A DNA stretch of 19,318 bases, taken from the IMG/VR virus record IMGVR_UViG_2537561980_000013; one strand, written 5' to 3'. The notes under the pieces were generated by a model. It was not told the DNA's origin. It saw only the letters and a program-made list of their open reading frames with translations, and made no database searches. Shown here one piece after another: positions 1-19,318 of this stretch (position 1 is the first letter of the stretch; every line of letters starts with the position of its first letter). Position numbers and translations under genes: made by a program. This DNA is from a virus. Taxonomy: Duplodnaviria > Heunggongvirae > Uroviricota > Caudoviricetes.

Positions 1-387
1 CCATTCAGCGCTGCCGCCCCCGGGCGCACTGATTGCTGTTCCATCGACAAGACGCAATCTCTTTCCGCTTGTACAACCCGTAACTGCGGCGCGTACAGCA
101 AGTGTTTGTGCGGCAAGTATGCCAAACCAGTCGGCGGCATTCCGCAGCCGCTTCAGGAGAGCCACGTCAGATAATGTTGCAACGTCATGGAGCTGAGCCC
201 ATGCAGTGACTTCACGTAATGACATCCCCCCGGGGCCGTAAGCCAGCCCCAGACGTAGCAGAGTTGCAGCATCACGAATTTCGCGGCGGCGGGTTAGAGC
301 CCCGGCATTACGTGCCGAAGTATCCAGTTCTTCGGGCTTACCAATATGGGCCAGAATTGCTGACCAGTTATCGTGAGAGTAATTCAT
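1..387 (-). CDS. insL: IS186/IS4-family transposase, N-terminal 129 codons (C-terminus outside window)
   Basis: Manual minus-strand translation from the ATG at 387-385 gives MNYSHDNWSAILAHIGKPEELDTSARNAGALTRRREIRDAATLLRLGLAYGPGG..., matching my recollection of the IS186 transposase N-terminus. Not in the ORF track because the reading frame is open to the window edge. Confidence 0.8.
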   Translation of the reverse strand, partial: MNYSHDNWSAILAHIGKPEELDTSARNAGALTRRREIRDAATLLRLGLAYGPGGMSLREVTAWAQLHDVATLSDVALLKRLRNAADWFGILAAQTLAVRAAVTGCTSGKRLRLVDGTAISAPGGGSAEW

Positions 388-442
388 CGGCACGTTAAAT
401 CATATCAGGCGTAATACCACAACCCTTAAGTTAGCGCTTATG
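1..442 (-). mobile_element. IS186-like (IS4 family) insertion sequence, partial; transposase-start-proximal end
   Basis: Reverse complement of 420-442 is CATAAGCGCTAACTTAAGGGTTG, which I recall as the IS186 terminal inverted repeat. The element runs off the 5' edge of the window. Confidence 0.75.
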
Positions 443-464
443 GGATCTCTCCCCGCCAGGTCTC

Positions 465-620
465 TTACCTTTCAGATTCGTAGGCTGTGAAGACAGTGAC
501 CTCCGTCTGGCCGGTTCGGATTCGTACCTCGCAGAGGTCTTTCCTCGTTACCAGTGCCGTCACAATGACGGTTAAACAGATGACGATCAGAGCGATTAAT
601 ATCGCTTTATGCTGCTTCAT
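465..620 (-). CDS. hok: Hok/Gef-family type I toxin (51 aa, single TM helix)
   Basis: Manual translation gives MKQHKAILIALIVICLTVIVTALVTRKDLCEVRIRTGQTEVTVFTAYESER, a near match to recalled HokD/RelF and HokC/Gef. AAGGAG RBS 8 nt upstream; TAA stop at 467-465. Too short for the ORF track. Confidence 0.85.
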   Translation of the reverse strand: MKQHKAILIALIVICLTVIVTALVTRKDLCEVRIRTGQTEVTVFTAYESER

Positions 621-742
621 AGCCTGCTTCTCCTTGACCTTTTGGTCGGTAAGAGGCTAATCTACGTATGCTAAGCATAGATATGGCCTCAGATTAATGT
701 TAAGCGTCTTGCAGGACGCGTAATGTTATCTGGGGCTTTCTT

Positions 743-777
743 CTATCTGCTTTTCGGGTAATGCCTGAAGCAGATAG
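743..777. promoter_or_regulatory. Perfect 10-bp inverted repeat (CTATCTGCTT / AAGCAGATAG, 15-nt loop) in the presumed hok mRNA leader / sok region
   Basis: Read directly from the sequence. No flanking U-tract on either strand, so probably an RNA structural element or operator rather than a terminator. Confidence 0.3.
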
Positions 778-801
778 CCTCAAGCACCCGCAACGATTGT
801 A

Positions 802-1047
802 TCAATGTCTGGCTTTTTTTCTATAGAAATCACCTGGAAGGGTGAATATCCACATCAGAAGAAATGTTGCAGCAAACATGATCCCTAATGGCCAGACCGC
901 GCCAAAGAAAATCCATACTAAGATCTCCTCTGCTTGTTCTTTGCGGTCGATATCGACAAGCATTTTTCGGCTGATCATGTATACACAGAAGCCAATACAA
1001 ACATATCCTGCAAAAGCGATCGCTAACTGTAAAAAATCAGATTGCAT
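802..1047 (-). CDS. Small inner-membrane protein, two predicted TM helices, charged C-terminus (81 aa from internal ATG; track ORF extends to 1128)
   Basis: ORF track 802..1128. The ATG at 1047 has a GAGG RBS 9 nt upstream and avoids overlap with the upstream gene; the ATG at 1128 has no RBS. Hydrophobic stretches FLQLAIAFAGYVCIGFCVYMI and ILVWIFFGAVWPLGIMFAATFLLMWIFTL. Confidence 0.45.
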   Translation of the reverse strand: MQSDFLQLAIAFAGYVCIGFCVYMISRKMLVDIDRKEQAEEILVWIFFGAVWPLGIMFAATFLLMWIFTLPGDFYRKKARH

Positions 1048-1097
1048 CTCCGACCTCAAACCGAAAACGCCAGGTGACTCCAGATTAGAGCAATCTA

Positions 1098-1367
1098 TCA
1101 CCCTCTGAATCCTGCCGGTATACCCCATTGTTCGTTATCTTTATTTTTGGCTAAAACCGCATTAAGAGCTTCGTTTACCGTCATGCAATGCGGCAGATTA
1201 TCGAAGTTTGATATCCCGCCAATATCAGGAGAACGCTTGTCCTTCAGGTAAGCATATTTCCGCGCTGCCGCCTCTACTTTCTGCTTGAACTCATGTTTTT
1301 GAGCGCGTTTTTTGGATAACCGCAGATTGTCAGCCTTTGCTTTTGCCTCAGCGATCCATGAAGTCAA
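1098..1367 (-). CDS. Hypothetical basic/helical protein (89 aa)
   Basis: ORF track. Start overlaps the stop of the upstream gene by 4 nt (translational coupling). No family recognised. Confidence 0.45.
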   Translation of the reverse strand: MTSWIAEAKAKADNLRLSKKRAQKHEFKQKVEAAARKYAYLKDKRSPDIGGISNFDNLPHCMTVNEALNAVLAKNKDNEQWGIPAGFRG

Positions 1368-1942
1368 TTTTTTGAGTCTGGTCGTTCCGGCACCGCCGGA
1401 AACTGATCTTTTTGTTTTTTAACTTGTGACTTCTTATTCTTTATTGCCACGTCATCCTGACAGGGGGAGGGGGTATCATTTTGACATGGGGGTGTGGATA
1501 AAAAATTAAATAAAGCCAATGTCTTAGCGAGAACAGCTTTAACCTTGGTTGCCGCTGAAGAGATCTTTAATTTGCTTTCAATCAGCGCATTTTTGGCTTG
1601 TTGTGCGAAGGCCAAAAAGGATGGTGTAAACCGGTACAGGTTAGCGCGACGTTCACGGTGATCGCCGATAACAATCTCTACAGACAGGATTCCTTTGTTT
1701 ACAGCTTCACGGAATGCACGAACGACGGTTGATTGGCTATAACCAGTTTCTGCCGCGATCAGGCGGTGAGGCTTGTGAATGAAGTATTCACTGGTTGTTG
1801 CCGCGAGATTTGCACATTGCGACAAGATATGCCCGGCGCTACGGGATAGACCGGAGTGTGTTACAAAGCAGGCCAATTCATAGCCAGAAAAAGTAAAATC
1901 GCTCATCGTTATACAGCTCAGGAAAGTGACTTTAGCCAGCAT
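1364..1942 (-). CDS. Putative winged-HTH DNA-binding protein (regulator or replication-initiator-like); start uncertain (1942 or 1906)
   Basis: ORF track. Segment LIAAETGYSQSTVVRAFREAVNKGIL resembles a helix-turn-helix; C-terminal region is Lys/Ser/Pro-rich. Neither candidate start has a strong RBS. Confidence 0.5.
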   Translation of the reverse strand: MLAKVTFLSCITMSDFTFSGYELACFVTHSGLSRSAGHILSQCANLAATTSEYFIHKPHRLIAAETGYSQSTVVRAFREAVNKGILSVEIVIGDHRERRANLYRFTPSFLAFAQQAKNALIESKLKISSAATKVKAVLAKTLALFNFLSTPPCQNDTPSPCQDDVAIKNKKSQVKKQKDQFPAVPERPDSKN

Positions 1943-1971
1943 TACAATGCTGGTGGTTCTTACTACGTCTG

Positions 1972-2772
1972 TTAGCGCGTCGCCGCGACAGGCACCAGCA
2001 CACCAGCATCAAGCAATCGCTTCATAAGCCACTGCTGACCTTTGCCGGTTATACGAGTCGTGAAAGAAATCCTGCTTCCATTGCTTGTATCGATCACGGT
2101 TTCTTTAAGGGTGAAATACCCACGGGATATGTATTCTTGTTTGGGGACGTTCCTGCGTTCACCGGTTGCGATCAGAATTCCGTTATCACGCAACCAGGTG
2201 AAGAGATAGTTTTGGCCCAGGCCGAGCACTTTGGCATAGTTGCCGATTAGAACCCCGCTGGCGGTAGCAACGCGTTCGGCGAATTCGACTTTAGGTGCAT
2301 CCATAAGCATTTTTTGCTCCAGCCGTTGCTTTTGCTCTGCCAGGTCGGCAGCCAAACGGAGAGCTTCAGGGAGACTCTGCGGAATAGCAGGTTGTAATCT
2401 TCCAGCTCGATAGTCGATAAATGTCTGGTTTACCTTCAGCCGAAACGCGGGAGAAATCCAGCCTGCGTACTCCACAGCGAGCAATTCATGGGCAAAAGTG
2501 CCGCCGCCACGGCCTTCGAACGAAACTATGCAATTCTGCATAGTTTCTTTTTCAAGCTCTTCGATGAGCTGTTTAGCTGACAGCGTTCTTAGCCATTGAG
2601 CTGGCGCTTTATGGGCACCGAGTCCGCTCGCTCTGTGTAGAGCATTAAGGTTGTAACGGCCAGCGCGGTCGGTCGTAATTTCAACACCACAAATAACGGG
2701 CAGAGTGGTTGAAGGATCGACATTTTGATGAAGGTTTGATATATTCATATCCGCATTGAATGTTTGTTGCAT
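1972..2772 (-). CDS. Phage anti-repressor, KilA-N N-terminal domain plus KilAC/ANT C-terminal domain
   Basis: ORF track. N-terminus (YNLNALHRASG...WLRT...AVEYAGWISPAFRLKV) has the KilA-N pattern; C-terminus (LPEALRLAADLAEQK...GNYAKVLGLGQNYLFTWLRDNGIL...GKGQQWLMKRLLDAG) has the ANT pattern. GGAGA RBS upstream. Confidence 0.8.
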   Translation of the reverse strand: MQQTFNADMNISNLHQNVDPSTTLPVICGVEITTDRAGRYNLNALHRASGLGAHKAPAQWLRTLSAKQLIEELEKETMQNCIVSFEGRGGGTFAHELLAVEYAGWISPAFRLKVNQTFIDYRAGRLQPAIPQSLPEALRLAADLAEQKQRLEQKMLMDAPKVEFAERVATASGVLIGNYAKVLGLGQNYLFTWLRDNGILIATGERRNVPKQEYISRGYFTLKETVIDTSNGSRISFTTRITGKGQQWLMKRLLDAGVLVPVAATR

Positions 2773-2830
2773 TTTTTCTCCAAATTTGCATCAACCTTCA
2801 ATCACCAGCTCGAAATGGTGATTCTTTGCA

Positions 2831-2860
2831 CTTAGAAAACGAAATTTATTAGAGCAAATT
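2831..2860. promoter_or_regulatory. Conserved element copy 1 (CTTAGAAAACGAAATTTATTAGAGCAAAT), upstream of the 1972-2772 anti-repressor gene
   Basis: 15-nt core AAATTTATTAGAGCA is identical to 4510-4524, with similar flanks; read directly. Confidence 0.4.
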
Positions 2861-2903
2861 TTTCTGACTCGATCCAGATCGGGTTGGACGATCTGCTCAG
2901 AAA

Positions 2904-2934
2904 CCTGCCAGTTTGCTGGCAGGTTTTTTCTTTT
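2904..2934. terminator. GC hairpin (CCTGCCAG-tttg-CTGGCAGG) followed by TTTTTTCTTTT on the plus strand; possible bidirectional terminator
   Basis: Read directly. The strong T-tract is on the plus strand, while the adjacent stop codon (2936) belongs to a minus-strand gene. Confidence 0.5.
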
Positions 2935-2935
2935 G

Positions 2936-3979
2936 TTAACCTATTGCTACTGGTTTTAACAAACCAGCATCAAGTAGCTTGCGAGTTAACCACTGCTGGC
3001 CTTTACCCGTTAATTGGGGCGTCAGCCGTATCTGGTAGCCATTTTCATCATCCAGCACCACTTCTTTCACCGTGAAATACCCGGCGTTGATGTACTGTTG
3101 GCGCGGTACGTTTTTGCGCGCACCAAAAGCCATGAGAATGCCGTTCTGGCGCAACCATGAGAAAAGGGCGTTTTGCTTAAGTCCAACGACCTTTGCAAAG
3201 TTCCCGATCAGGATTCCATTAGCCGCTGATACCCGGTCGGCAAAATCGACTTTAGGGGCTGCGGCCACCAGCTGTTGTTCCAACTGCATTTTCTGTTCTG
3301 CCAACTCGGCAGCCAGGCGTAGAGCGTCTGGTAATGTTTGGGGGATCGATGGGGCAGGGGAGTTTGCCTGCTGCAATTCTTCCAGTTTGTCGATCAGCGA
3401 ACGGCGGACTGCTTTTGACTCGCGCGCGGCGACTCGCAGGGCTTGTTTGTAGGTCATGGTTATGACAACCATAGGCGTACCGCCACCTGGCGGCACGGTT
3501 GCACTTTTTGTGTAACCGTCCTCACCTTCTAATTCGTCGAGTATTTTTTTGATGAATTTGTTGTTCCGAACCTCTGGTTCCCCACATAACTTACGCGCTT
3601 CATTGACCATCTTTAACAGCGTCTGGCTGTCGATTGTGTCTCCAGTGTTGGAGATAACATTCACAGCTGGTGATGGCGTAGCTGAAGCAACAGATGCTGG
3701 TTTTTTAACATTCAAATTATTACTGGTCATTCTATGTGCCTCCTTTCTCATTTCTGCTGCCACCGTTGCGTAACGTAGACGTCCTTGTTCAATCAAATAA
3801 TCCCTGATCTCGGCTATCAGTAGCCTGTTGATCACAGCCTTATCTGTTCGGGTATAAAAACGTCTGGTTATCATGAAATAGTTGGCAATTGCGCCGGGGA
3901 TCTCCCGTGTCGGCATACAGGCAGTATGCAGGGCGATCGCTTCGGCTATGTCATTACGGGTGACGAGAGGTTTTTTCAT
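2936..3979 (-). CDS. Phage anti-repressor paralog with KilAC/ANT C-terminal domain and a distinct N-terminal region
   Basis: ORF track. C-terminal ~130 aa closely parallel those of the 1972-2772 product (LPDALRLAAELAEQK...GNFAKVVGLKQNALFSWLRQNGIL...GKGQQWLTRKLLDAG). AGGGGG RBS upstream. Confidence 0.75.
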   Translation of the reverse strand: MKKPLVTRNDIAEAIALHTACMPTREIPGAIANYFMITRRFYTRTDKAVINRLLIAEIRDYLIEQGRLRYATVAAEMRKEAHRMTSNNLNVKKPASVASATPSPAVNVISNTGDTIDSQTLLKMVNEARKLCGEPEVRNNKFIKKILDELEGEDGYTKSATVPPGGGTPMVVITMTYKQALRVAARESKAVRRSLIDKLEELQQANSPAPSIPQTLPDALRLAAELAEQKMQLEQQLVAAAPKVDFADRVSAANGILIGNFAKVVGLKQNALFSWLRQNGILMAFGARKNVPRQQYINAGYFTVKEVVLDDENGYQIRLTPQLTGKGQQWLTRKLLDAGLLKPVAIG

Positions 3980-4197
3980 AAAACCCCCTGAACGTCGGCA
4001 GAGAAGGGGAGGTTCCAGTAACTAAGTGAATTGCGCGAGTTAGTTGAAAAACGGGCAGTAAAAATGCAGGGGCCATCAGGCAATTGAGAGCGTGCTTCGT
4101 CTTCTGTTGCTGCGATGACGAAGTGATAGTGGTGTTTTTTGCAGGAATAGAAACGCCAGATGAATTCTTGGCGTGCGCAAGGATTGGCATTAACCAT
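3976..4197 (-). CDS. Small hypothetical protein (73 aa), translationally coupled to the downstream anti-repressor
   Basis: ORF track. GAGG RBS 8-9 nt upstream of the ATG at 4197; stop overlaps the next start by 4 nt. Preferred over the alternative-frame ORF 3954..4190. Confidence 0.5.
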   Translation of the reverse strand: MVNANPCARQEFIWRFYSCKKHHYHFVIAATEDEARSQLPDGPCIFTARFSTNSRNSLSYWNLPFSADVQGVL

Positions 4198-4496
4198 AGT
4201 TACGGCCTCGTAAGTTGATAAACAACCTGCGACCCGCTGCTAAACAGGTGGCAGGACGTGACGGGGTTAGCAGACTGGCACTTACGAAACCAGCAGGCCG
4301 AAGCCTCCCCATCACGCCCCACCATAATTCGGGCGTAACGTGGTTTACGGACACAAAAATACCGCAATATCGGAAATCTGCGGTTGTCCGCGTAAGTATT
4401 CAGGCTGCTAAACCCGGTCGCAGAATTTGCTACGACGGCGAAACTATAAGCCTGAACGATTAAAAGGTCAATATGATGCAAAAAGATAGCATTCGC

Positions 4497-4528
4497 GACT
4501 TAAAAATACAAATTTATTAGAGCAGATT
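4497..4528. promoter_or_regulatory. Conserved element copy 2 (CTTAAAAATACAAATTTATTAGAGCAGAT) at the head of the minus-strand anti-repressor operon
   Basis: Same 15-nt core as 2842-2856. A possible minus-strand -35 (TTGCAC, revcomp of 4535-4540) lies just outside it. Confidence 0.4.
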
Positions 4529-4558
4529 AGTGTCGTGCAATAGATATATTATTTGTGA

Positions 4559-4667
4559 TGAAAAATAATGCAGATGGATATTGTAACTTTAAGATGGATA
4601 TCAATAGTCGATACATAAATTAAGTTAGCAATAAACTATTAACTTAAGAAATAATGCAGATGGTGAA
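4559..4667. repeat. Direct repeats AAATAATGCAGATGG (4563-4577 and 4649-4663) in the AT-rich divergent intergenic region
   Basis: Read directly; TAAGTTAG also occurs twice (4621-4628, 4697-4704). Candidate operator sites. Confidence 0.4.
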
Positions 4668-4807: not shown

Positions 4808-5329
4808 ATGATTCTTATGTCTAAAAAGTATACTTTATGCGCTCTTGTTGTATCTGCAATTCTTCTTTCTGGGTGTCAATCTAGCGGTGCTGATTATGCT
4901 GCCGATGTTTATGATACCGCTCAATTGAATTCGAAGCAGGAAACAAAGACAGTCAATATTATCTCTGTGCTTCCAGCTAAAGTGAAAGTTGATAATAAAG
5001 CTAATAAAGAAGCGGCACAGACATTTGGTGCGGTACTGGGAGCTGTTGCTGGGGGCGTTGCCGGTTATAATGTTAAAGGCACATCGACACTGGGTGCTGT
5101 AGCTGGCGGTACTGGTGGTGCGGCTCTTGGTGCAGCGGCTGGTTCTTTGGTTAGTGATAAAACAATTGTTGAAGGTGTTTCACTGACTTATAAAGAAGGA
5201 ACTAAGGTGTTCACTTCAACTCAAGTTGGTAAAGCATGCCAGTTTACAACGGGGCTTGCTGTGCTTATTTCAACTAAAGATAATGAAACTCGAATTCAGC
5301 CAAATGCTACTTGTCCAGAAAAGAAATAA
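4808..5329 (+). CDS. SlyB/PCP-like glycine-zipper outer-membrane lipoprotein (start 4808 or 4817)
   Basis: ORF track. Signal peptide with lipobox LLSGC; two glycine-zipper stretches (GAVLGAVAGGVAGY, GAVAGGTGGAALGAAAGS); overall architecture parallels recalled SlyB. AT-rich codon usage. Confidence 0.8.
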   Translation: MILMSKKYTLCALVVSAILLSGCQSSGADYAADVYDTAQLNSKQETKTVNIISVLPAKVKVDNKANKEAAQTFGAVLGAVAGGVAGYNVKGTSTLGAVAGGTGGAALGAAAGSLVSDKTIVEGVSLTYKEGTKVFTSTQVGKACQFTTGLAVLISTKDNETRIQPNATCPEKK

Positions 5330-5332
5330 TTT

Positions 5333-5872
5333 ATGAATAAAATTATTTTATTTCTAATCTTTTCTACGTTTAGTGTAGGCACTGCCTTGGCTAACTCGTT
5401 GCAAAGTCAAATTGCTGCTATTGCTCAAGCGGAAAATGAAGGGCGAGCTAAAGAGCAGCAAGCTGAGGATGCCAGAAAAGAACTTATTCGCCAACAAGCA
5501 CAAGCTGAACGTATTAGAAGAGAAAAAGCAGCATCTGCCGCTGCTGCACGCGAAAAACAGCGTGTTGCTGCAGAAAATGAACGTAGAGCGAAACGAGAAG
5601 CCGAGCTAGCAAATGACAAGAAGCGAGATCAAGCTTATGAGGATGAGCTTCGCAAGCTGCAACTCGAAAGCATGAAACTCGAACTGCAAGCAAAAGCGGC
5701 TCGTGTCCAGCGAGAAAACGATTTTATAGAGCAGGAGTTGAAGGAGAGAGCAGCTAAGACAGATGTAATTCAGTCTGAGGCTGATGCAAATAGAAATATT
5801 TCTACAGGAAGTAAAGATTTACTGCAAAGCGAAGGAAAAGCTAGAGAGAAGAAAGCTAGCAGTTGGTGGTAG
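5333..5872 (+). CDS. Secreted (signal-peptide) Ala/Glu/Arg/Lys-rich coiled-coil protein
   Basis: ORF track. N-terminal signal peptide (…FSVGTALA|NS), then ~150 aa of charged heptad-like sequence. Starts 3 nt after the lipoprotein stop (operon). Confidence 0.7.
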   Translation: MNKIILFLIFSTFSVGTALANSLQSQIAAIAQAENEGRAKEQQAEDARKELIRQQAQAERIRREKAASAAAAREKQRVAAENERRAKREAELANDKKRDQAYEDELRKLQLESMKLELQAKAARVQRENDFIEQELKERAAKTDVIQSEADANRNISTGSKDLLQSEGKAREKKASSWW

Positions 5873-14941: not shown

Positions 14942-17266
14942 ATGAATGACGTTACAGTTGTTACATCGGTTACTTACCCATCACCCGAGTCGTTGGCTCT
15001 GGTGGCTGATGTGCAATACCACGAACCATATCTGTCAGCCGCGCTAAACCGAAAATTCAGGGGAATTGTTGACCCTGGATTTTATGCTGGTTTCCTGCCG
15101 AAGCCTGGCGGTGGGATGAACCTGTTAATCACCTCAGTGGATGGTGATAAAACCGCTGGCGCGGCGTCAGTGAATATTGGTGAATTCTACCAGGTAACTA
15201 TTCAGCAGCGTAAGGATATTTCTCTTGCACTTAGCGCAGGTAAGAAATATGCAATTGTGCTGAAGGGAAGATACCTCCTTGGAGAAGATTCTTATCAGGT
15301 TAATACCGCGTCACATATTCATGCGGCTGAATTTGTTGCCAGAACCTATACCGATTCATATCAGTTAGGAGATGGGGAACTGCTTGTTTGTACGGTGAAT
15401 ATCCCTGCTGGCGTATCTGCTATTACTCAGGAAATGATAGATGTATCCGACCGCATCGATCTCACGATAGGCATTGAAATTTCCGACTCTGTAACCAGTA
15501 CCAGAAGTGATGTCGCTGCAAGTTCGCTGGCGGTTAAAAAAGCCTACGATCTGGCGAAAAGCAAGTATACGGCGCAGGATGCAAGCACAACACAAAAGGG
15601 ATTAGTTCAGCTCAGTAGCGCAACTAACAGCGACAGCGAAACAATGGCGGCTACCCCTAAAGCCGTTAAGTCTGTAAAAGAGCTGGCTGATACCAAAGCG
15701 CCAATAGAAAGCCCAGAGCTTACAGGAACGCCAACCGCGCCTACGGCAGCGCAAAGTACAAACAGCACGCAGATCGCAAACACAGCCTTTGTTAAGGCAG
15801 CTATAACAGCACTTATCAATGGTGCTCCTGGAGCACTGGATACGTTGAAAGAAATTGCGGCTGCGATCAATAACGACCCGAATTTCAGCACAACTATCAA
15901 CAATGCCCTGGCTCTCAAAGCGCCTTTGGCAAGCCCTGCATTAACGGGTATCCCTACTGCACCTACCGCTGCACAGGGCACAAACAATACGCAGATCGCT
16001 ACGACTGCTTACGTACGGGCTGCTATATCTGCATTGGTCGGCTCATCACCAGAAGCTCTTGATACCCTGAATGAGCTTGCAGCAGCACTTGGCAATGACC
16101 CGAACTTTGCGACAACAATGACAAATGCGCTGGCAGGGAAACAGCCACTTGATGCAACTTTAACAGCGCTCGCTGGCCTTACGACTGGCGCAAATAAATT
16201 GCCGTACTTTACCGGTACAGACACTGTTTCCCAGACTGATTTAACGTCAGTCGGTCGCGATATCCTGGCTAAAACAAGCACACTGGCTGTTATCCAATAC
16301 CTTGGTTTAAGAGAAATCGGTACCAGCGGTGAAAAGATCCCCCTGTTGAGCACGGCTAACACATGGAGTGCACGCCAGACTTTCAACGGTGGGATCACCG
16401 GGGCGCTGACAGGGAACGCCGACACCGCGACGAAATTGAAAACAGCACGCACGATTGGCGGTGTGGCATTTGATGGTACTGCGAATATTAATTTACCTGG
16501 TGTTAACGTTGCGGGGAATCAGAATACATCCGGTAACGCGGCTACAGCGACCAAGTTACAAACCGCGAGAACTATAAATGGGGTGTCGTTTGACGGTTCT
16601 AAAAACATTGAGCTAACTCCAAGGTCTATAGGCACGATCAACTCAACAACCATGTCTTTTATTGGTGGTGCAGGATGGTTCAAGCTGGCAACTGTAACCA
16701 TGCCACAGGCAAGTTCCGTAGTTTACATAAGCCTGATTGGTAGTTCTGGATATAATGTTAACTCCCCTATGCAGGCTGGTATATCTGAACTTGTTCTTCG
16801 TGCGGGAAATGGGAATCCAAAAGGTCTTACTGGTGCGTTATGGCGACGGACATCGGTTGGATTTACTAATTTTGCATGGGTGAATACATCCGGTGATACC
16901 TATGATGTTTATGTTGAAATAGGTAATTACGCCACGGGTGTAAATATCCAGTGGGATTATACCAGTAACGCCAGCGTAACGATTCATACATCACCAAATT
17001 ACACAGTAGATAAACCAACTGGTCTTACTGATGGAACGGTATATGTTATTTACAGTTCGCACATTAAACCGACCGCCACGGATGTCGGCGCATTACCAAT
17101 AACCGGAGGAAATCTCAACGGCGGTTTAACGGCTACTGGTGAGATCGTTTCAAGATATGCAAATGGTTTCCGCATTGCCTATGGAAGCTACGGATTCTTT
17201 ATCCGAAACGATGGCTCAAAGACATATTTCATGTTGACCAATTCGGGTAACAGCCTGGGAACCTAT
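14942..17266 (+). pseudogene. Side tail fibre gene (P2 gpH / lambda Stf / Mu S type), 3' end truncated by IS2
   Basis: Track ORF 14855..17353; the real start is the ATG at 14942 with AAGGA RBS. Conserved blocks QKGLVQLSSATNSDSETMAATPKAVK, SPALTGIPTAPTAAQGTNNTQIATTAYV, ALDTLNELAAALGNDPNFATTMTNALAGKQPLDATLTALAGL, KLPYF, VGRDILAK match recalled tail fibres. The frame runs into IS2 at 17267 and ends 29 codons later. Confidence 0.8.
15707..16150 (+). repeat. Internal tandem duplication in the tail fibre (2 x 222 bp, 74 aa each)
   Basis: Two consecutive units of [A/E]SPxLTGxPTAPTAAQxTNxTQIAxTA[FY]V[KR]AAIxAL...P[GE]ALDTL[KN]E[IL]AAA[IL][NG]NDPNF[SA]TT[IM][NT]NALAxKxPL read directly. Confidence 0.6.
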
Positions 17267-17277
17267 TGGATTTGCCC

Positions 17278-18183
17278 CTATATTTCCAGACACCTGTTAT
17301 CACTTAACCCATTACTGGCTTGCTGCCGTAGATATTCCCGTGGCGAGCGATAACCCAGTGCACTATGCGGATGCCATTCGTTATAATGCTCGAATGCCTC
17401 TGCAAGGTTCTTTGCTGCCGTTAACCCGTCTGGTTTGGGCATGACACTGATGTAGTCACGCTTTATCGTTTTCACGAAGCTCTCTGCTATGCCGTTACTC
17501 TCCGGACTCCGCACCGCCGTGTTCTTCGGTTCAAGCCCCAACATCCGGGCAAACTGCCGTGTTTCATTAGCCCGGTAGCATGAACCATTATCCGTCAGCC
17601 ACTCTACTGGAGACGCCGGAAGCTCGTTGCCGAAACGGCGTTCCACCGCTCCCAGCATGACGTCCTGTACTGTTTCACTGTTGAAGCCGCCCGTAGTGAC
17701 CGCCCAGTGCAGTGCCTCACGGTCACAGCAGTCCAGCGCGAACGTGACTCTCAGTTTTTCTCCGTTATCACAGCGGAACTCGAACCCGTCAGAGCACCAT
17801 CGCTGATTACTTTCTTTCACAGCCACTCTGCCGGTATGTGCCCGTTTCGATGGCGGTACAGCGGGTTTTCGCTCAAGCAACAGCGCATTCTGGCGCATGA
17901 TCCGGTAAATACGTTTGGCATTGATCGCAGGCATACCATCAAGTTCGGCCTGTCTGCGAAGCAGCGCCCATACCCGACGATAACCATATGTGGGCAGCTC
18001 TCCGATAACATGGTGTATACGGAGAAGCACATCCGTATCATCTGAGTGACGGCTGCGGCGACCATCTTTCCAGTCATCGGTTCGTCTGAGAATGACGTGC
18101 AACTGCGCACGCGACACCCGGAGACAACGGCTGACTAAGCTTACTCCCCATCCCCGGGCAATAAGGGCGCGTGCGCTATCCAC
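17278..18183 (-). CDS. insD: IS2 transposase OrfB (InsD), 301 aa; normally expressed as an InsCD fusion by -1 frameshifting
   Basis: ORF track. Translation ([34 protein letters not shown]...) matches recalled IS2 InsD. Confidence 0.9.
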
Positions 18184-18506
18184 TTTTTTGCCCGCCCATA
18201 TTCAACGGCTTCTTTAAGGAGTTCATTTTCCATCGTTTTTTTGCCGAGCAGGCGCTGGAGTTCTTTAATCTGCTTCATGGCGGCAGCAAGTTCAGAGGCA
18301 GGAACGACCTGTTCTCCTGCGGCCACAGCAGTAAGACTTCCCTCCTGGTATTGCTTGCGCCAGAGAAATAACTGGCTGGCTGCCACACCGTGTTGCCGGG
18401 CAACAAGGGAGACTGTCATTCCCGGTTCAAAACTCTGCTGAACAATAGCGATCTTTTCCTGTGTAGTACGCCGTCTGCGTTTCTCCGGTCCTAAGACATC
18501 AATCAT
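18141..18506 (-). CDS. insC: IS2 OrfA (InsC), 121 aa
   Basis: Track ORF 18141..18551 is extended upstream; the internal ATG at 18506 gives [47 protein letters not shown]..., matching recalled IS2 InsC. Confidence 0.9.
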
Positions 18507-18780
18507 CTGCTCTCCAATGACTAGTCTAAAAACTAGTATTAAGACTATCACTTAAATAAGTGATATTGGTTGTCTGGAGATTCAGGGGGCCAGTCTAACG
18601 GGTGATGAAGTCGTATCATTAGATAAACACATCAACACCAGTGCTACTGATACAGATCAAATACAAGCATTTATAGTTTCAACATGGATGGCGCCTTTTC
18701 AAAATGATATGTATTCAGAAGATAATCCTATCTCACCTTACTATAAAATTGAATGGTAGACGATTGACCAAATAAATCAT

Positions 18781-18841: not shown

Positions 18842-19318
18842 ATGCGCTCACCAAAAGTTAAATTCTTAACCATCTTCACGTTTTGTATATTTATTACAAA
18901 AATGTCTTTCGCCAGCAACTCTTGCTCTAATGAATCAGGAACAATGTTCAGAATCGAACCAAATTTAATTAAAGCTATCGCTCTTGTTGAAAGCAATCTA
19001 AAAAAGGATAGCATAGGCAAGAACAGAGATAAGAATAACAACATAAAGAGTTTAGATTATTGGTTAATGCAGATAAACCAGATGCATATTCCCCTGTTAA
19101 AAAAACGTGGAATAATAAAAGATGAACGAGATTTGTTAGATAACCCTTGTCTGAACATTAAAATAGGAACCGAGATTTTATATAACCATTTTTCACGTTG
19201 TGGAGTAACGTGGCAATGCCTGGGGACTTATAATGCGGGTTTTGCAATGGATAACCAAAAAAAGAGACAGCAATATGCCCCAAAATATATATTGTATATA
19301 CCAGGCTTAATGAACTAG
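18842..19318 (+). CDS. IagB/IpgF/EtgA-family specialised lytic transglycosylase with signal peptide (158 aa)
   Basis: ORF track. Signal peptide; family-1 lytic transglycosylase motifs ALVES (catalytic Glu), WLMQIN, GTYNAGF. Very AT-rich coding sequence; stop at 19316-19318. Confidence 0.8.
   Translation: MRSPKVKFLTIFTFCIFITKMSFASNSCSNESGTMFRIEPNLIKAIALVESNLKKDSIGKNRDKNNNIKSLDYWLMQINQMHIPLLKKRGIIKDERDLLDNPCLNIKIGTEILYNHFSRCGVTWQCLGTYNAGFAMDNQKKRQQYAPKYILYIPGLMN

What the first reader, a model, noticed from the sequence alone, without database searches (positions are those of the whole stretch)
1972..3979. Tandem anti-repressor paralogs with a shared C-terminal domain and different N-termini
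Two adjacent minus-strand genes encode proteins whose C-terminal ~130 aa are clearly homologous (KilAC/ANT domain), while the N-termini differ: a KilA-N domain in one and an unrelated ~200-aa region in the other. Each has its own upstream conserved element. Duplicated anti-repressors with swapped sensor domains suggest two independent derepression inputs, or cross-talk with other prophages in the host.
Basis: partly seen in the sequence, partly recalled or inferred. Interest (0 to 1): 0.45.

Follow-up and report, generated by a model that had tools for sequence, protein, structure and literature searches.

The report
Phage P1 ant and kilA genes
The two genes are the long-studied antirepressor (ant1/ant2) and host-killing (kilA) genes of a P1/P7-type plasmid prophage of E. 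coli; they really do share a C-terminal domain, but this is textbook phage biology, not a discovery.

Summary
ORFs 1972-2772(-) (266 aa) and 2936-3979(-) (347 aa) share a C-terminal module of about 140 aa (62.9% identity; whole-protein BLASTP E 4e-66). Both match Pfam ANT/KilAC. Only the 266-aa protein has KilA-N.

The locus is not new. The window is 97-99% identical to phages P1 and P7 and to IncY P1-like plasmids. The 266-aa protein is 100% identical to P7 KilA. The 347-aa protein is 92.5% identical to P1 Ant1 and keeps the in-frame Ant2 start.

The "upstream conserved elements" are the C1 operators Op53 and Op51. Upstream of ant lie the C4 antisense RNA, its targets and icd. A terminator separates ant from kilA, and kilA heads the kilA-repL lytic replicon.

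So the two genes are not independent sensors. Both are repressed by C1, the repressor that Ant inactivates. Whether KilA is an antirepressor is untested; evidence from other KilAC proteins points to host growth or division inhibition.

Small additions: the Ant N-terminal region is a helical Ant1-only extension plus a distantly Rha-like winged-helix domain, and the paralogy is old.

Side finding: C4 loops and targets co-vary in 11 specificity combinations.

Verdict: already known, low interest.

The parts
1972..2772 (-). kilA (266 aa), first gene of the C1-controlled kilA-repL lytic-replicon operon
   Evidence: ORF. 100% identical to P7 KilA and 265/266 identical to P1 KilA. Annotated kilA in P1 and P7.
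2404..2694 (-). KilA-N domain of KilA (aa 27-123)
   Evidence: Pfam PF04383, E 3.7e-21, 75.4 bits against a cut-off of 23.8.
1975..2397 (-). Shared C-terminal module of KilA (aa 126-266): linker helix plus KilAC/ANT domain
   Evidence: Pfam ANT at aa 152-254, E 2e-32. 62.9% identical to Ant1 aa 208-347. Ant C-terminal profile finds it at E 8e-34.
2717..2745 (+). P53as (PaskilA) antisense promoter inside the 5' end of kilA. Transcription start maps to 2753. The RNA would run about 184 nt to the hairpin and T-run at 2899-2936.
   Evidence: Hexamers identical to the P1 annotation. Found independently by the promoter scan: TCGACA-17-TATATT with TG. Length computed.
2842..2858 (-). C1 operator Op53 (OrepL), TTTGCTCTAATAAATTT, overlapping the -10 of promoter P53 (-10 at 2848-2853, -35 at 2871-2876). 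Three Dam GATC sites lie at 2871-2893.
   Evidence: Identical to the annotated P1 features. It is one copy of the 31-nt repeat.
2899..2928 (.). GC-rich 13-bp hairpin between ant and kilA. Likely terminator of the immI operon on the minus strand, and of the P53as RNA on the plus strand.
   Evidence: Terminator scan. Sequence shown.
2936..3979 (-). ant1 (347 aa), antirepressor large subunit
   Evidence: ORF. 92.5% identical to P1 Ant1 and 89.7% to P7 Ant1. Annotated ant1 in P1 and P7.
2936..3730 (-). ant2 (264 aa), in-frame internal start within ant1, with its own Shine-Dalgarno AAGGAGG at 3739-3745
   Evidence: Mapped from the P1 annotation. Start context.
2939..3358 (-). Shared C-terminal module of Ant1/Ant2 (aa 208-347): long helix 216-252 plus KilAC/ANT domain
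   Evidence: Pfam ANT at aa 234-336, E 5e-31. AF2 block-mean pLDDT mostly 87-97, with dips to 69 and 80 at aa 241-260. Alignment to KilA.
3338..3661 (-). Middle domain of Ant1, which is the N-terminal domain of Ant2 (aa ~107-214). Predicted beta-alpha-alpha-beta-beta-alpha-alpha winged-helix-like fold, distantly Rha-like. It contains a hypervariable patch at aa 153-173 (3461-3523).
   Evidence: It occurs as the N-terminal domain of many ~230-260-aa proteins. pLDDT above 90. Family consensus hits Pfam Phage_pRha at E 1.3e-4, 22.9 bits, below the cut-off. Variable patch shown.
3719..3979 (-). Ant1-specific N-terminal extension (aa 1-87), four predicted helices, no known family
   Evidence: A separable module in the representative search. 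AF2 helices 8-87, block-mean pLDDT 57-79. No Pfam hit. In relatives it is joined to ORF6N+KilAC instead.
3976..4197 (-). icd (73 aa), cell-division inhibitor. Its stop overlaps the ant1 ATG (ATGA), consistent with translational coupling.
   Evidence: 72/73 identical to P7 Icd. NCBIfam phage_ICD_like, E 3e-14. Overlap shown.
4208..4243 (-). C4 target sites on the icd-ant mRNA: b2 (4208-4215, next to the icd GAGG ribosome site) and a2 (4237-4243)
   Evidence: Mapped from the P1 annotation. Exact complements of the C4 loops.
4244..4329 (-). c4 antisense RNA gene (mature 77-nt RNA at about 4247-4323). Loops are b' CGTAAGT (4280-4286) and a' CTGCTAA (4267-4273).
   Evidence: Rfam RF01695, 70.8 bits against a gathering score of 45. 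Alignment to P1 and P7. Loop coordinates.
4390..4449 (-). a1/b1 upstream target sites of C4 (b1 at 4390-4397, a1 at 4405-4411)
   Evidence: Rfam RF03163 c4-a1b1, 55.3 bits against a gathering score of 46.7..
4443..4526 (-). immI promoters P51b (-10 at 4443-4448, -35 at 4466-4471) and P51a, plus C1 operator Op51 (4510-4526, TCTGCTCTAATAAATTT, the P7 form)
   Evidence: TTGACC-17-TATAGT. Second copy of the 31-nt repeat.
1098..1942 (-). repL (with oriL inside it), second gene of the kilA operon. Here it is split into 192 + 89 aa by a 1-nt deletion in an A7 run.
   Evidence: Intact in close relatives.

Best explanation
The finding covers two adjacent but separate transcription units of a P1/P7-type (Punavirus, IncY) plasmid prophage of E. 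coli.

Unit 1 is the immI operon: promoters P51a/b with C1 operator Op51, then targets a1 and b1, the c4 antisense RNA, targets a2 and b2, icd, and ant1/ant2. C4 RNA is cut out of the same transcript. It pairs through its a' and b' loops with a2/b2 at the icd ribosome-binding site and so blocks icd translation. Because ant1 is translationally coupled to icd (ATGA overlap), it also blocks Ant synthesis. When Ant1 (347 aa) and the in-frame Ant2 (264 aa) are made, they form a complex that binds repressor C1 and removes it from its operators.

Unit 2 starts after a terminator hairpin: promoter P53 with C1 operator Op53, then kilA and repL/oriL, opposed by the ~180-nt antisense RNA P53as. KilA is made only after C1 is inactivated. 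It is dispensable for replication and for plaque formation, and it is toxic to the host.

The two proteins share an old, mobile C-terminal module (linker helix plus KilAC/ANT domain) attached to different DNA-binding-type N-terminal modules. KilA carries KilA-N. Ant2 carries a distantly Rha-like winged helix, and Ant1 adds an 83-aa helical extension in front of it.

Shown here: gene identity, domain content, the regulatory elements and their conservation. Taken from the literature: C1 binding by Ant1/Ant2, C4 action, KilA lethality. Inferred: KilA most likely acts on the host (growth or division arrest through its KilAC module) rather than as a second antirepressor.
For: - DNA identity: 97-99% to P1, P7 and P1-like phage-plasmids over window 442/1084-8000. 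The segment 1900-4600 is present in 426 of 5,426 complete E. coli genomes, almost always on plasmids, and is 100% identical in NZ_CP122822.1.
- Protein identity: KilA 266/266 to P7 and 265/266 to P1; Ant1 92.5% to P1; Icd 72/73 to P7.
- Regulatory elements: every annotated P1 element maps onto the window, mostly unchanged. These are Op53, P53, the Dam sites, P53as, the ant2 start, the IHF site, c4, a/b targets, P51a/b and Op51.
- RNA: Rfam finds C4 and c4-a1b1 above their gathering scores.
- Expression signals: Ant2 has its own AAGGAGG; icd and ant1 overlap as ATGA; b2 abuts the icd GAGG.
- Separate units: a terminator hairpin lies between ant and kilA.
- Domains: Pfam results; the modular N-terminus.
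- Literature: the Ant1/Ant2 heterodimer is an antirepressor and c4 RNA represses Ant synthesis (PMC8546580). KilA kills or blocks division and sits in the repL operon (PMC8201110). ant1, ant2 and kilA are non-essential in a CRISPRi screen (PMC10695390).
- KilAC domains on their own cause growth arrest or filamentation (Phi11 Gp07, PMC5944126; CreP) or inhibit the SOS response (AriS, PMC9043618).
Against: Nothing contradicts the identification. The weak points concern function. No experiment here or in the papers I could read shows what KilA binds. Which Ant domain contacts C1 is unknown. KilA and Ant share 63% identity in the module that could be the C1-binding part, so an antirepressor role for KilA is not excluded. 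In this window repL is frameshifted, so unit 2 may not be fully functional in this particular element, unless the frameshift is a sequencing error. The Rha-like assignment of the Ant2 N-domain is below the Pfam threshold.
Confidence: 0.93

Rival explanations
1. One reading: KilA is a second antirepressor. Because it is itself repressed by C1 at Op53, it would act as a positive-feedback lock on the lytic decision, or it would act on repressors of other resident prophages.
For: KilA shares 63% identity with Ant over the helix plus KilAC module. RefSeq annotates both as 'phage antirepressor'. [quoted passage not shown]
Against: No experimental evidence was found. The classical P1 immunity scheme recognises only Coi and Ant1/2 as C1 antagonists. 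Isolated KilAC domains of other phages act on host processes, not on phage repressors. The 'antirepressor' label in databases is carried over from the domain name.
Confidence: 0.2
2. The pair is a recent tandem duplication of one antirepressor gene followed by replacement of the N-terminus, or it is kept similar by gene conversion.
For: The genes are adjacent, in the same orientation, and share the C-terminal module.
Against: Nucleotide identity in the shared part is 61%. Third-codon-position identity is 36%. The longest shared exact word is 12 nt. The genes are in different operons separated by a terminator and a promoter. KilAC is known to be a mobile domain fused to many N-terminal domains. 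The arrangement is the same in P1, P7 and 33 of 56 informative viral loci.
Confidence: 0.03
3. KilA is a DNA-binding accessory factor of the lytic replicon: KilA-N binds at or near oriL, or at P53, and helps RepL. Its toxicity would be a side effect.
For: KilA-N is regarded as a DNA-binding domain (Iyer et al. 2002, from my own knowledge; restated). kilA is co-transcribed with repL.
Against: The P1 and P7 annotations describe kilA as non-essential for replicon function ([X15639, X15638], 8, 9). Knock-down has no effect on plating.
Confidence: 0.1

Closest known systems
Bacteriophage P1/P7 Ant1/Ant2 antirepressor (immI operon c4-icd-ant)
   Same: 92.5% (P1) and 89.7% (P7) protein identity. Same length, same in-frame Ant2 start with its own SD, same coupling to icd, and the same C4 RNA, a/b targets, promoters and Op51 operator.
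   Different: A hypervariable patch at aa 153-173 and some substitutions at aa 86-110. The C4 b-loop and b targets differ from both P1 and P7 (CGTAAGT / ACTTACG), while the a-site is the P7 type. This allele is common in other P1-like elements.
Bacteriophage P1/P7 KilA (kilA-repL lytic replicon, P53/Op53/P53as)
   Same: 100% identical to P7 KilA and 265/266 to P1 KilA. Op53, P53, the Dam sites and P53as are identical.
   Different: The downstream repL carries a 1-nt deletion. The operator after repL (Op55/Orlf) is cut after 11 nt, where rlfA/rlfB are replaced by a small ORF and a hok/sok module.
AriS of Listeria phage phi10403S, Gp07 of S. aureus phage Phi11, CreP of Acinetobacter baylyi (other KilAC proteins)
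   Same: A C-terminal or stand-alone KilAC/ANT domain, combined with exchangeable N-terminal domains (AntA/B, Bro-N, pRha). The domain alone inhibits the SOS response or cell division.
   Different: Distant in sequence, from different hosts, with different N-terminal domains and different regulation. None is known to bind a P1-type C1 repressor.
Ant of Salmonella phage P22 (immI) and Coi of P1
   Same: Functional analogues: small-RNA-controlled (P22 sar) or C1-controlled proteins that inactivate the prophage repressor by binding it (own knowledge; Coi).
   Different: As far as I know (own knowledge, not tested here) they have no KilAC domain and are unrelated in sequence.

Membership tests
P1/P7 Ant1/Ant2 antirepressor | Near-full-length sequence identity to P1/P7 Ant1 | tested here: met
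   322/348 aligned columns (92.5%) to P1 and 89.7% to P7.
P1/P7 Ant1/Ant2 antirepressor | Two products from one frame: an internal Ant2 start with its own ribosome-binding site | tested here: met
   ATG at 3730 preceded by AAGGAGG at 3739-3745, giving a 264-aa product. Maps onto the annotated P1 ant2.
P1/P7 Ant1/Ant2 antirepressor | Lies in the immI operon behind c4 and icd, with C4 loops complementary to the a1, b1, a2 and b2 targets | tested here: met
   Rfam C4 and c4-a1b1 above their gathering scores. Exact complementarity. icd-ant1 ATGA overlap.
P1/P7 Ant1/Ant2 antirepressor | Operon promoter controlled by a C1 operator (Op51) | tested here: met
   TCTGCTCTAATAAATTT at 4510-4526, identical to the P7 Op(c4).
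P1/P7 Ant1/Ant2 antirepressor | The Ant1/Ant2 complex binds and inactivates C1 | not testable with these tools
   Literature only (annotation; PMC8546580).
P1/P7 KilA | Sequence identity and KilA-N + KilAC architecture | tested here: met
   266/266 to P7. Pfam KilA-N E 3.7e-21 and ANT E 2e-32.
P1/P7 KilA | First gene of the P53/Op53 operon, followed by repL, with antisense promoter P53as | tested here: met
   All elements are identical to the P1 annotation, and P53as was also found by the scan. repL is present but frameshifted.
P1/P7 KilA | Expression is lethal to the host | not testable with these tools
   Annotation and literature only.
Pfam ANT / KilAC domain (PF03374) | Score above the Pfam gathering threshold (25.3 bits) in both proteins | tested here: met
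   112.2 and 107.6 bits.
Pfam Phage_pRha (PF09669), for the Ant2 N-terminal domain | Score above the gathering threshold (29.9 bits) | tested here: not met
   Ant1 itself gives no hit even at E<=10. The family consensus reaches 22.9 bits, E 1.3e-4. Among the 95 aligned homologues, 3 match at E<=0.001, best E 3.7e-8. So the domain resembles Rha distantly but is not a demonstrable member.
Recent tandem gene duplicates | High nucleotide identity, including synonymous positions | tested here: not met
   61% nucleotide identity, 36% third-position identity, longest shared word 12 nt.

The most novel reading that the evidence does not exclude
The shared helix plus KilAC module is the working part of both proteins and contacts the same partner. 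KilA, which is itself repressed by C1 at Op53, would then be a second, feedback-wired antagonist of C1, or would join mixed Ant/KilA complexes, locking in the lytic decision once derepression starts. The exchangeable N-terminal DNA-binding-type domains would only decide where or when each protein acts. This has been suggested informally (PMC8201110) but never tested.
Probability: 0.15. Interest if true: 0.4.

Novelty: already known. Interest (0 to 1): 0.08.

Why it matters
It matters little as a discovery. The locus is the classical immI / lytic-replicon region of P1 and P7, dissected in the 1980s and 1990s and present in roughly 8% of complete E. coli genomes. Two points have some residual value. 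First, the function of KilA and of the KilAC domain in general is still unsettled. The P1 pair, with one proven antirepressor and one toxic paralogue carrying the same domain, is a convenient system to settle it. Second, the side observation of many co-varying C4 loop/target alleles suggests far more immI immunity types among P1-like resistance plasmids than the classical P1/P7 pair. That bears on which phage-plasmids can coexist or induce one another.

Tried and rejected
- Sequence searches of both proteins, and of a 95-sequence profile, against all PDB chains found nothing meaningful. No solved structure detectable by sequence search exists for KilAC, KilA-N of this type, or the Ant middle domain.
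- BFVD returned only other phage KilAC/antirepressor proteins.
- The word-indexed homologue search with the Ant N-terminus was swamped by relatives at >=90% identity. The exhaustive representative search was needed to reveal the two modules.
- Pfam and NCBIfam gave nothing for the Ant1 N-terminal 83 aa.
- Tandem Repeats Finder found nothing in the window.
- The P1 genome paper (Lobocka 2004) and Iyer et al. 2002 are not in the held library. Statements from them are marked as my own knowledge.
- I considered and rejected a recent duplication or gene conversion and low-complexity similarity.
- I did not model KilA, because no diverse alignment could be obtained and the Pfam hit is unambiguous.
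Full report
**1. The observation**

The two minus-strand ORFs exist exactly as described: 1972..2772 (266 aa) and 2936..3979 (347 aa). BLASTP between them gives E 4e-66. The real similarity is in the last ~140 residues, at 62.9% amino-acid and 61.0% nucleotide identity.

Pfam ANT/KilAC (PF03374) matches both proteins far above its cut-off: 112 and 108 bits against 25.3. KilA-N (PF04383, 75 bits) matches only the 266-aa protein. PHROGs places both in 'anti-repressor Ant' families.

The similarity is not low-complexity. The region is predicted as a long helix plus a compact alpha/beta domain, with block-mean pLDDT mostly 87-97 and dips to 69 and 80 at aa 241-260. A profile built from 94 Ant-family C-termini finds KilA at E 8e-34. 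A profile of the Ant middle domain scores -0.9 bits on KilA.

The 'upstream conserved element' is real too. A 31-nt direct repeat at 2830-2860 and 4498-4528 is 84% identical and shares the 15-mer TGCTCTAATAAATTT.

**2. What it is**

Megablast shows that window 442/1084-8000 is 97-99% identical to Punavirus P1, phage P7 and many P1-like phage-plasmids. Against plasmids, more than 5,000 records match and the best are IncY P1-like plasmids. Window 1900-4600 is present at >=80% coverage in 426 of 5,426 complete E. coli genomes, almost always on plasmids. It is 100% identical in plasmid NZ_CP122822.1.

- The 266-aa protein is identical to P7 KilA and differs from P1 KilA at one residue.
- The 347-aa protein is 92.5% identical to P1 Ant1 and 89.7% to P7 Ant1.
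- The 73-aa ORF at 3976..4197 is Icd, 72/73 identical to P7.

I transferred the detailed P1 annotation onto the window through an alignment. Identical to P1:
- Op53 (2842-2858)
- P53 (-10 at 2848-2853, -35 at 2871-2876)
- three Dam sites
- the antisense promoter P53as (2717-2745, start at 2753)
- the ant2 start (3730)
- an IHF site
- the P51a/b hexamers

Op51 (4510-4526) is present in its P7 form, and the C4 a/b target sites differ from those of P1.

Rfam independently finds the C4 antisense RNA (4244-4329, 70.8 bits) and its a1/b1 target motif (4397-4449, 55.3 bits). The promoter scan independently recovers P51b and P53as. The terminator scan finds a 13-bp GC-rich hairpin at 2899-2928 between ant and kilA.

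So the finding spans the end of the immI operon (c4-icd-ant1/ant2) and the start of the lytic replicon operon (kilA-repL). These are two separate transcription units.

**3. How it works**

Shown here by sequence:
- Both units start with a promoter overlapped by a C1 operator.
- The C4 loops (b' CGTAAGT at 4280-4286, a' CTGCTAA at 4267-4273) are exact complements of b1/a1 and b2/a2.
- b2 abuts the icd Shine-Dalgarno.
- The icd stop overlaps the ant1 start (ATGA).
- Ant2 has its own strong SD, AAGGAGG.
- The P53as transcript would run ~184 nt from 2753 to the hairpin and T-run. I recall a ~180-base RNA being reported for P1 (own knowledge: Heinrich et al. 1995).

Taken from the literature:
- C1 represses lytic genes, including repL.
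- The Ant1/Ant2 heterodimer is an antirepressor, and c4 RNA represses Ant synthesis (PMC8546580; annotation).
- KilA kills the host or blocks division and is co-transcribed with repL (PMC8201110).
- ant1, ant2 and kilA are dispensable for plaque formation (PMC10695390).

The two genes are therefore not two sensors. Both are repressed by C1, the protein that Ant attacks. ant has an extra RNA lock (C4) that gives immunity specificity. kilA has its own antisense RNA.

**4. The different N-termini**

The exhaustive representative search with Ant1 aa 1-214 shows two separable modules:
- aa 1-93 occurs in few proteins.
- aa ~107-214 occurs at the very N-terminus of many 230-260-aa proteins. This is the Ant2 architecture.

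The AF2 model has mean pLDDT 82.8 and agrees:
- four helices at aa 8-87 (block-mean pLDDT 57-79)
- a disordered linker at aa 88-113
- a confident beta-alpha-alpha-beta-beta-alpha-alpha domain at aa 115-206
- a long helix at aa 216-252
- the KilAC domain at aa 258-337

Ant1 itself has no Pfam hit in this region. The consensus of the middle-domain family hits Phage_pRha at E 1.3e-4, 22.9 bits, below the 29.9 cut-off. Of 95 aligned homologues, 3 match pRha at E<=0.001. I therefore call the domain distantly Rha-like, not a demonstrated member.

In relatives the Ant1 extension is joined to ORF6N+KilAC instead (P0135) or to middle+ORF6N+KilAC (P0121). This matches the known behaviour of KilAC as a mobile domain fused to various DNA-binding-type N-domains (Iyer et al. 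2002 from my own knowledge).

**5. Age of the paralogy**

Third-codon-position identity in the shared part is 36% and the longest shared exact word is 12 nt. This is an old relationship, not a recent tandem duplication or gene conversion.

I looked at 56 viral-contig loci that share the C4 core and have >=3.6 kb downstream:
- 33 carry the complete ant + kilA tandem.
- 8 have an Ant with the N-extension but no Rha-like domain and no kilA.
- 3 have ant only.
- 12 have neither.

Across these loci KilA-N is 98-100% identical, while the Ant middle domain ranges from 67 to 100%.

**6. What KilA does**

This is the only open question in the locus. I found no data supporting it.

KilAC domains expressed alone cause growth arrest and filamentation: Phi11 Gp07 and CreP, which also shows weak FtsZ co-IP. 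In Listeria AriS the domain damps the SOS response.

I therefore rate a host-directed role as most likely and the antirepressor role at about 0.2. Neither can be tested with these tools.

**7. Things seen on the way**

(a) The window's C4 b-site differs from both P1 and P7 while its a-site is the P7 type. In 116 complete C4 loci from viral contigs there are 6 b' alleles x 2 a' alleles, in 11 observed combinations. In 116/116 loci all four targets are exact complements of that locus's own loops. I could not establish whether more than the two classical specificities have been described.

(b) repL is split by a 1-nt deletion in an A7 run. The sit gene has a 297-nt tandem duplication and a premature stop. 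A third 1-nt homopolymer difference lies at ~2923. Close relatives have intact genes. These are either homopolymer sequencing errors or signs of a decaying prophage.

(c) The element is flanked or interrupted by IS421 (1-444) and an IS3-family element in the tail-fibre gene. rlfA/rlfB are replaced by a small ORF plus hok/sok, and the junction lies inside operator Op55.

**8. Verdict**

The feature is already known. Interest is low.

Noticed in passing
window 4208-4411 (C4 loops at 4267-4286; targets at 4208-4243 and 4390-4411); loci L007-L126: The C4 antisense RNA has a b-loop (CGTAAGT) unlike P1 (CACTAAC) or P7 (CACAATC), and the b1 and b2 targets are changed to match. Across 116 C4 loci from viral contigs, 6 b' x 2 a' alleles occur in 11 combinations. 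In every locus the four targets are exact complements of the loops. This points to many more immI immunity types than the classical P1/P7 pair. I could not find whether this has been published.
   Followed up: yes
window ~1408-1414 (repL, 1098-1942, minus strand): A 1-nt deletion in an A7 run splits RepL (281 aa in P1/P7) into 192-aa and 89-aa ORFs. repL is intact in the closest plasmids. This is either a homopolymer sequencing error or inactivation of the lytic replicon.
   Followed up: partly
window 8119-8817 (sit / tape-measure-like gene): A 297-nt tandem duplication (8221-8432 and 8518-8729, 84% identical) is followed by a frame change and a stop at 8778. The gene that is a single ORF in P1 relatives is split into 219 + 996 aa here.
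   Followed up: partly
window 3461-3523 (Ant1 aa 153-173): This is a hypervariable patch in the predicted beta-hairpin of the Ant2 N-terminal domain. It is essentially unalignable at the DNA level between this window, P1 and P7, while flanking codons are 95-100% identical. Across viral loci this domain varies from 67 to 100% identity while KilA stays at 98-100%. The variation is not linked to C4 type.
   Followed up: partly
window 1-1097: Homology to P1/P7 ends inside the C1 operator after repL: only ATTGCTCTAAT remains at 1084-1094. rlfA/rlfB are replaced by an 81-108-aa membrane-like ORF (802-1128), a hok/sok toxin-antitoxin (hok at 465-620; sok RNA by Rfam at 615-789, 114.9 bits) and the end of an IS421 copy (1-444).
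   Followed up: partly
window 17278-18551 and 18842-19318: An IS3-family element (transposase ORFs of 301 aa and 136 aa; IS2-like by the plasmid hits) truncates the tail-fibre gene (14855-17353). Beyond it lies an SLT transglycosylase gene that is not part of the P1 order. The prophage looks rearranged or defective.
   Followed up: partly
window 4808-5872: As in P7, and unlike P1, the simABC superimmunity genes are replaced by a lipoprotein with weak TraT similarity (173 aa) and a DUF5384 protein (179 aa).
   Followed up: partly
window 4563-4577 and 4649-4663: A perfect 15-nt direct repeat, AAATAATGCAGATGG, spaced 86 nt apart, lies in the divergent intergenic region between Op51 and the lipoprotein gene. 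Its meaning is unknown.
   Followed up: no
window 2419-2586 (KilA aa 63-118): The KilA-N part of KilA matches PADLOC model PDC-S22, a candidate defence-system protein, at E 7e-10. This is probably just a shared KilA-N-type domain.
   Followed up: no
window ~2923: The T-run after the ant-kilA terminator hairpin is one T shorter than in plasmid pRHB13-C03_3. Together with the repL deletion it is one of two single-base homopolymer length differences against pRHB13-C03_3 in the first 4.8 kb.
   Followed up: no
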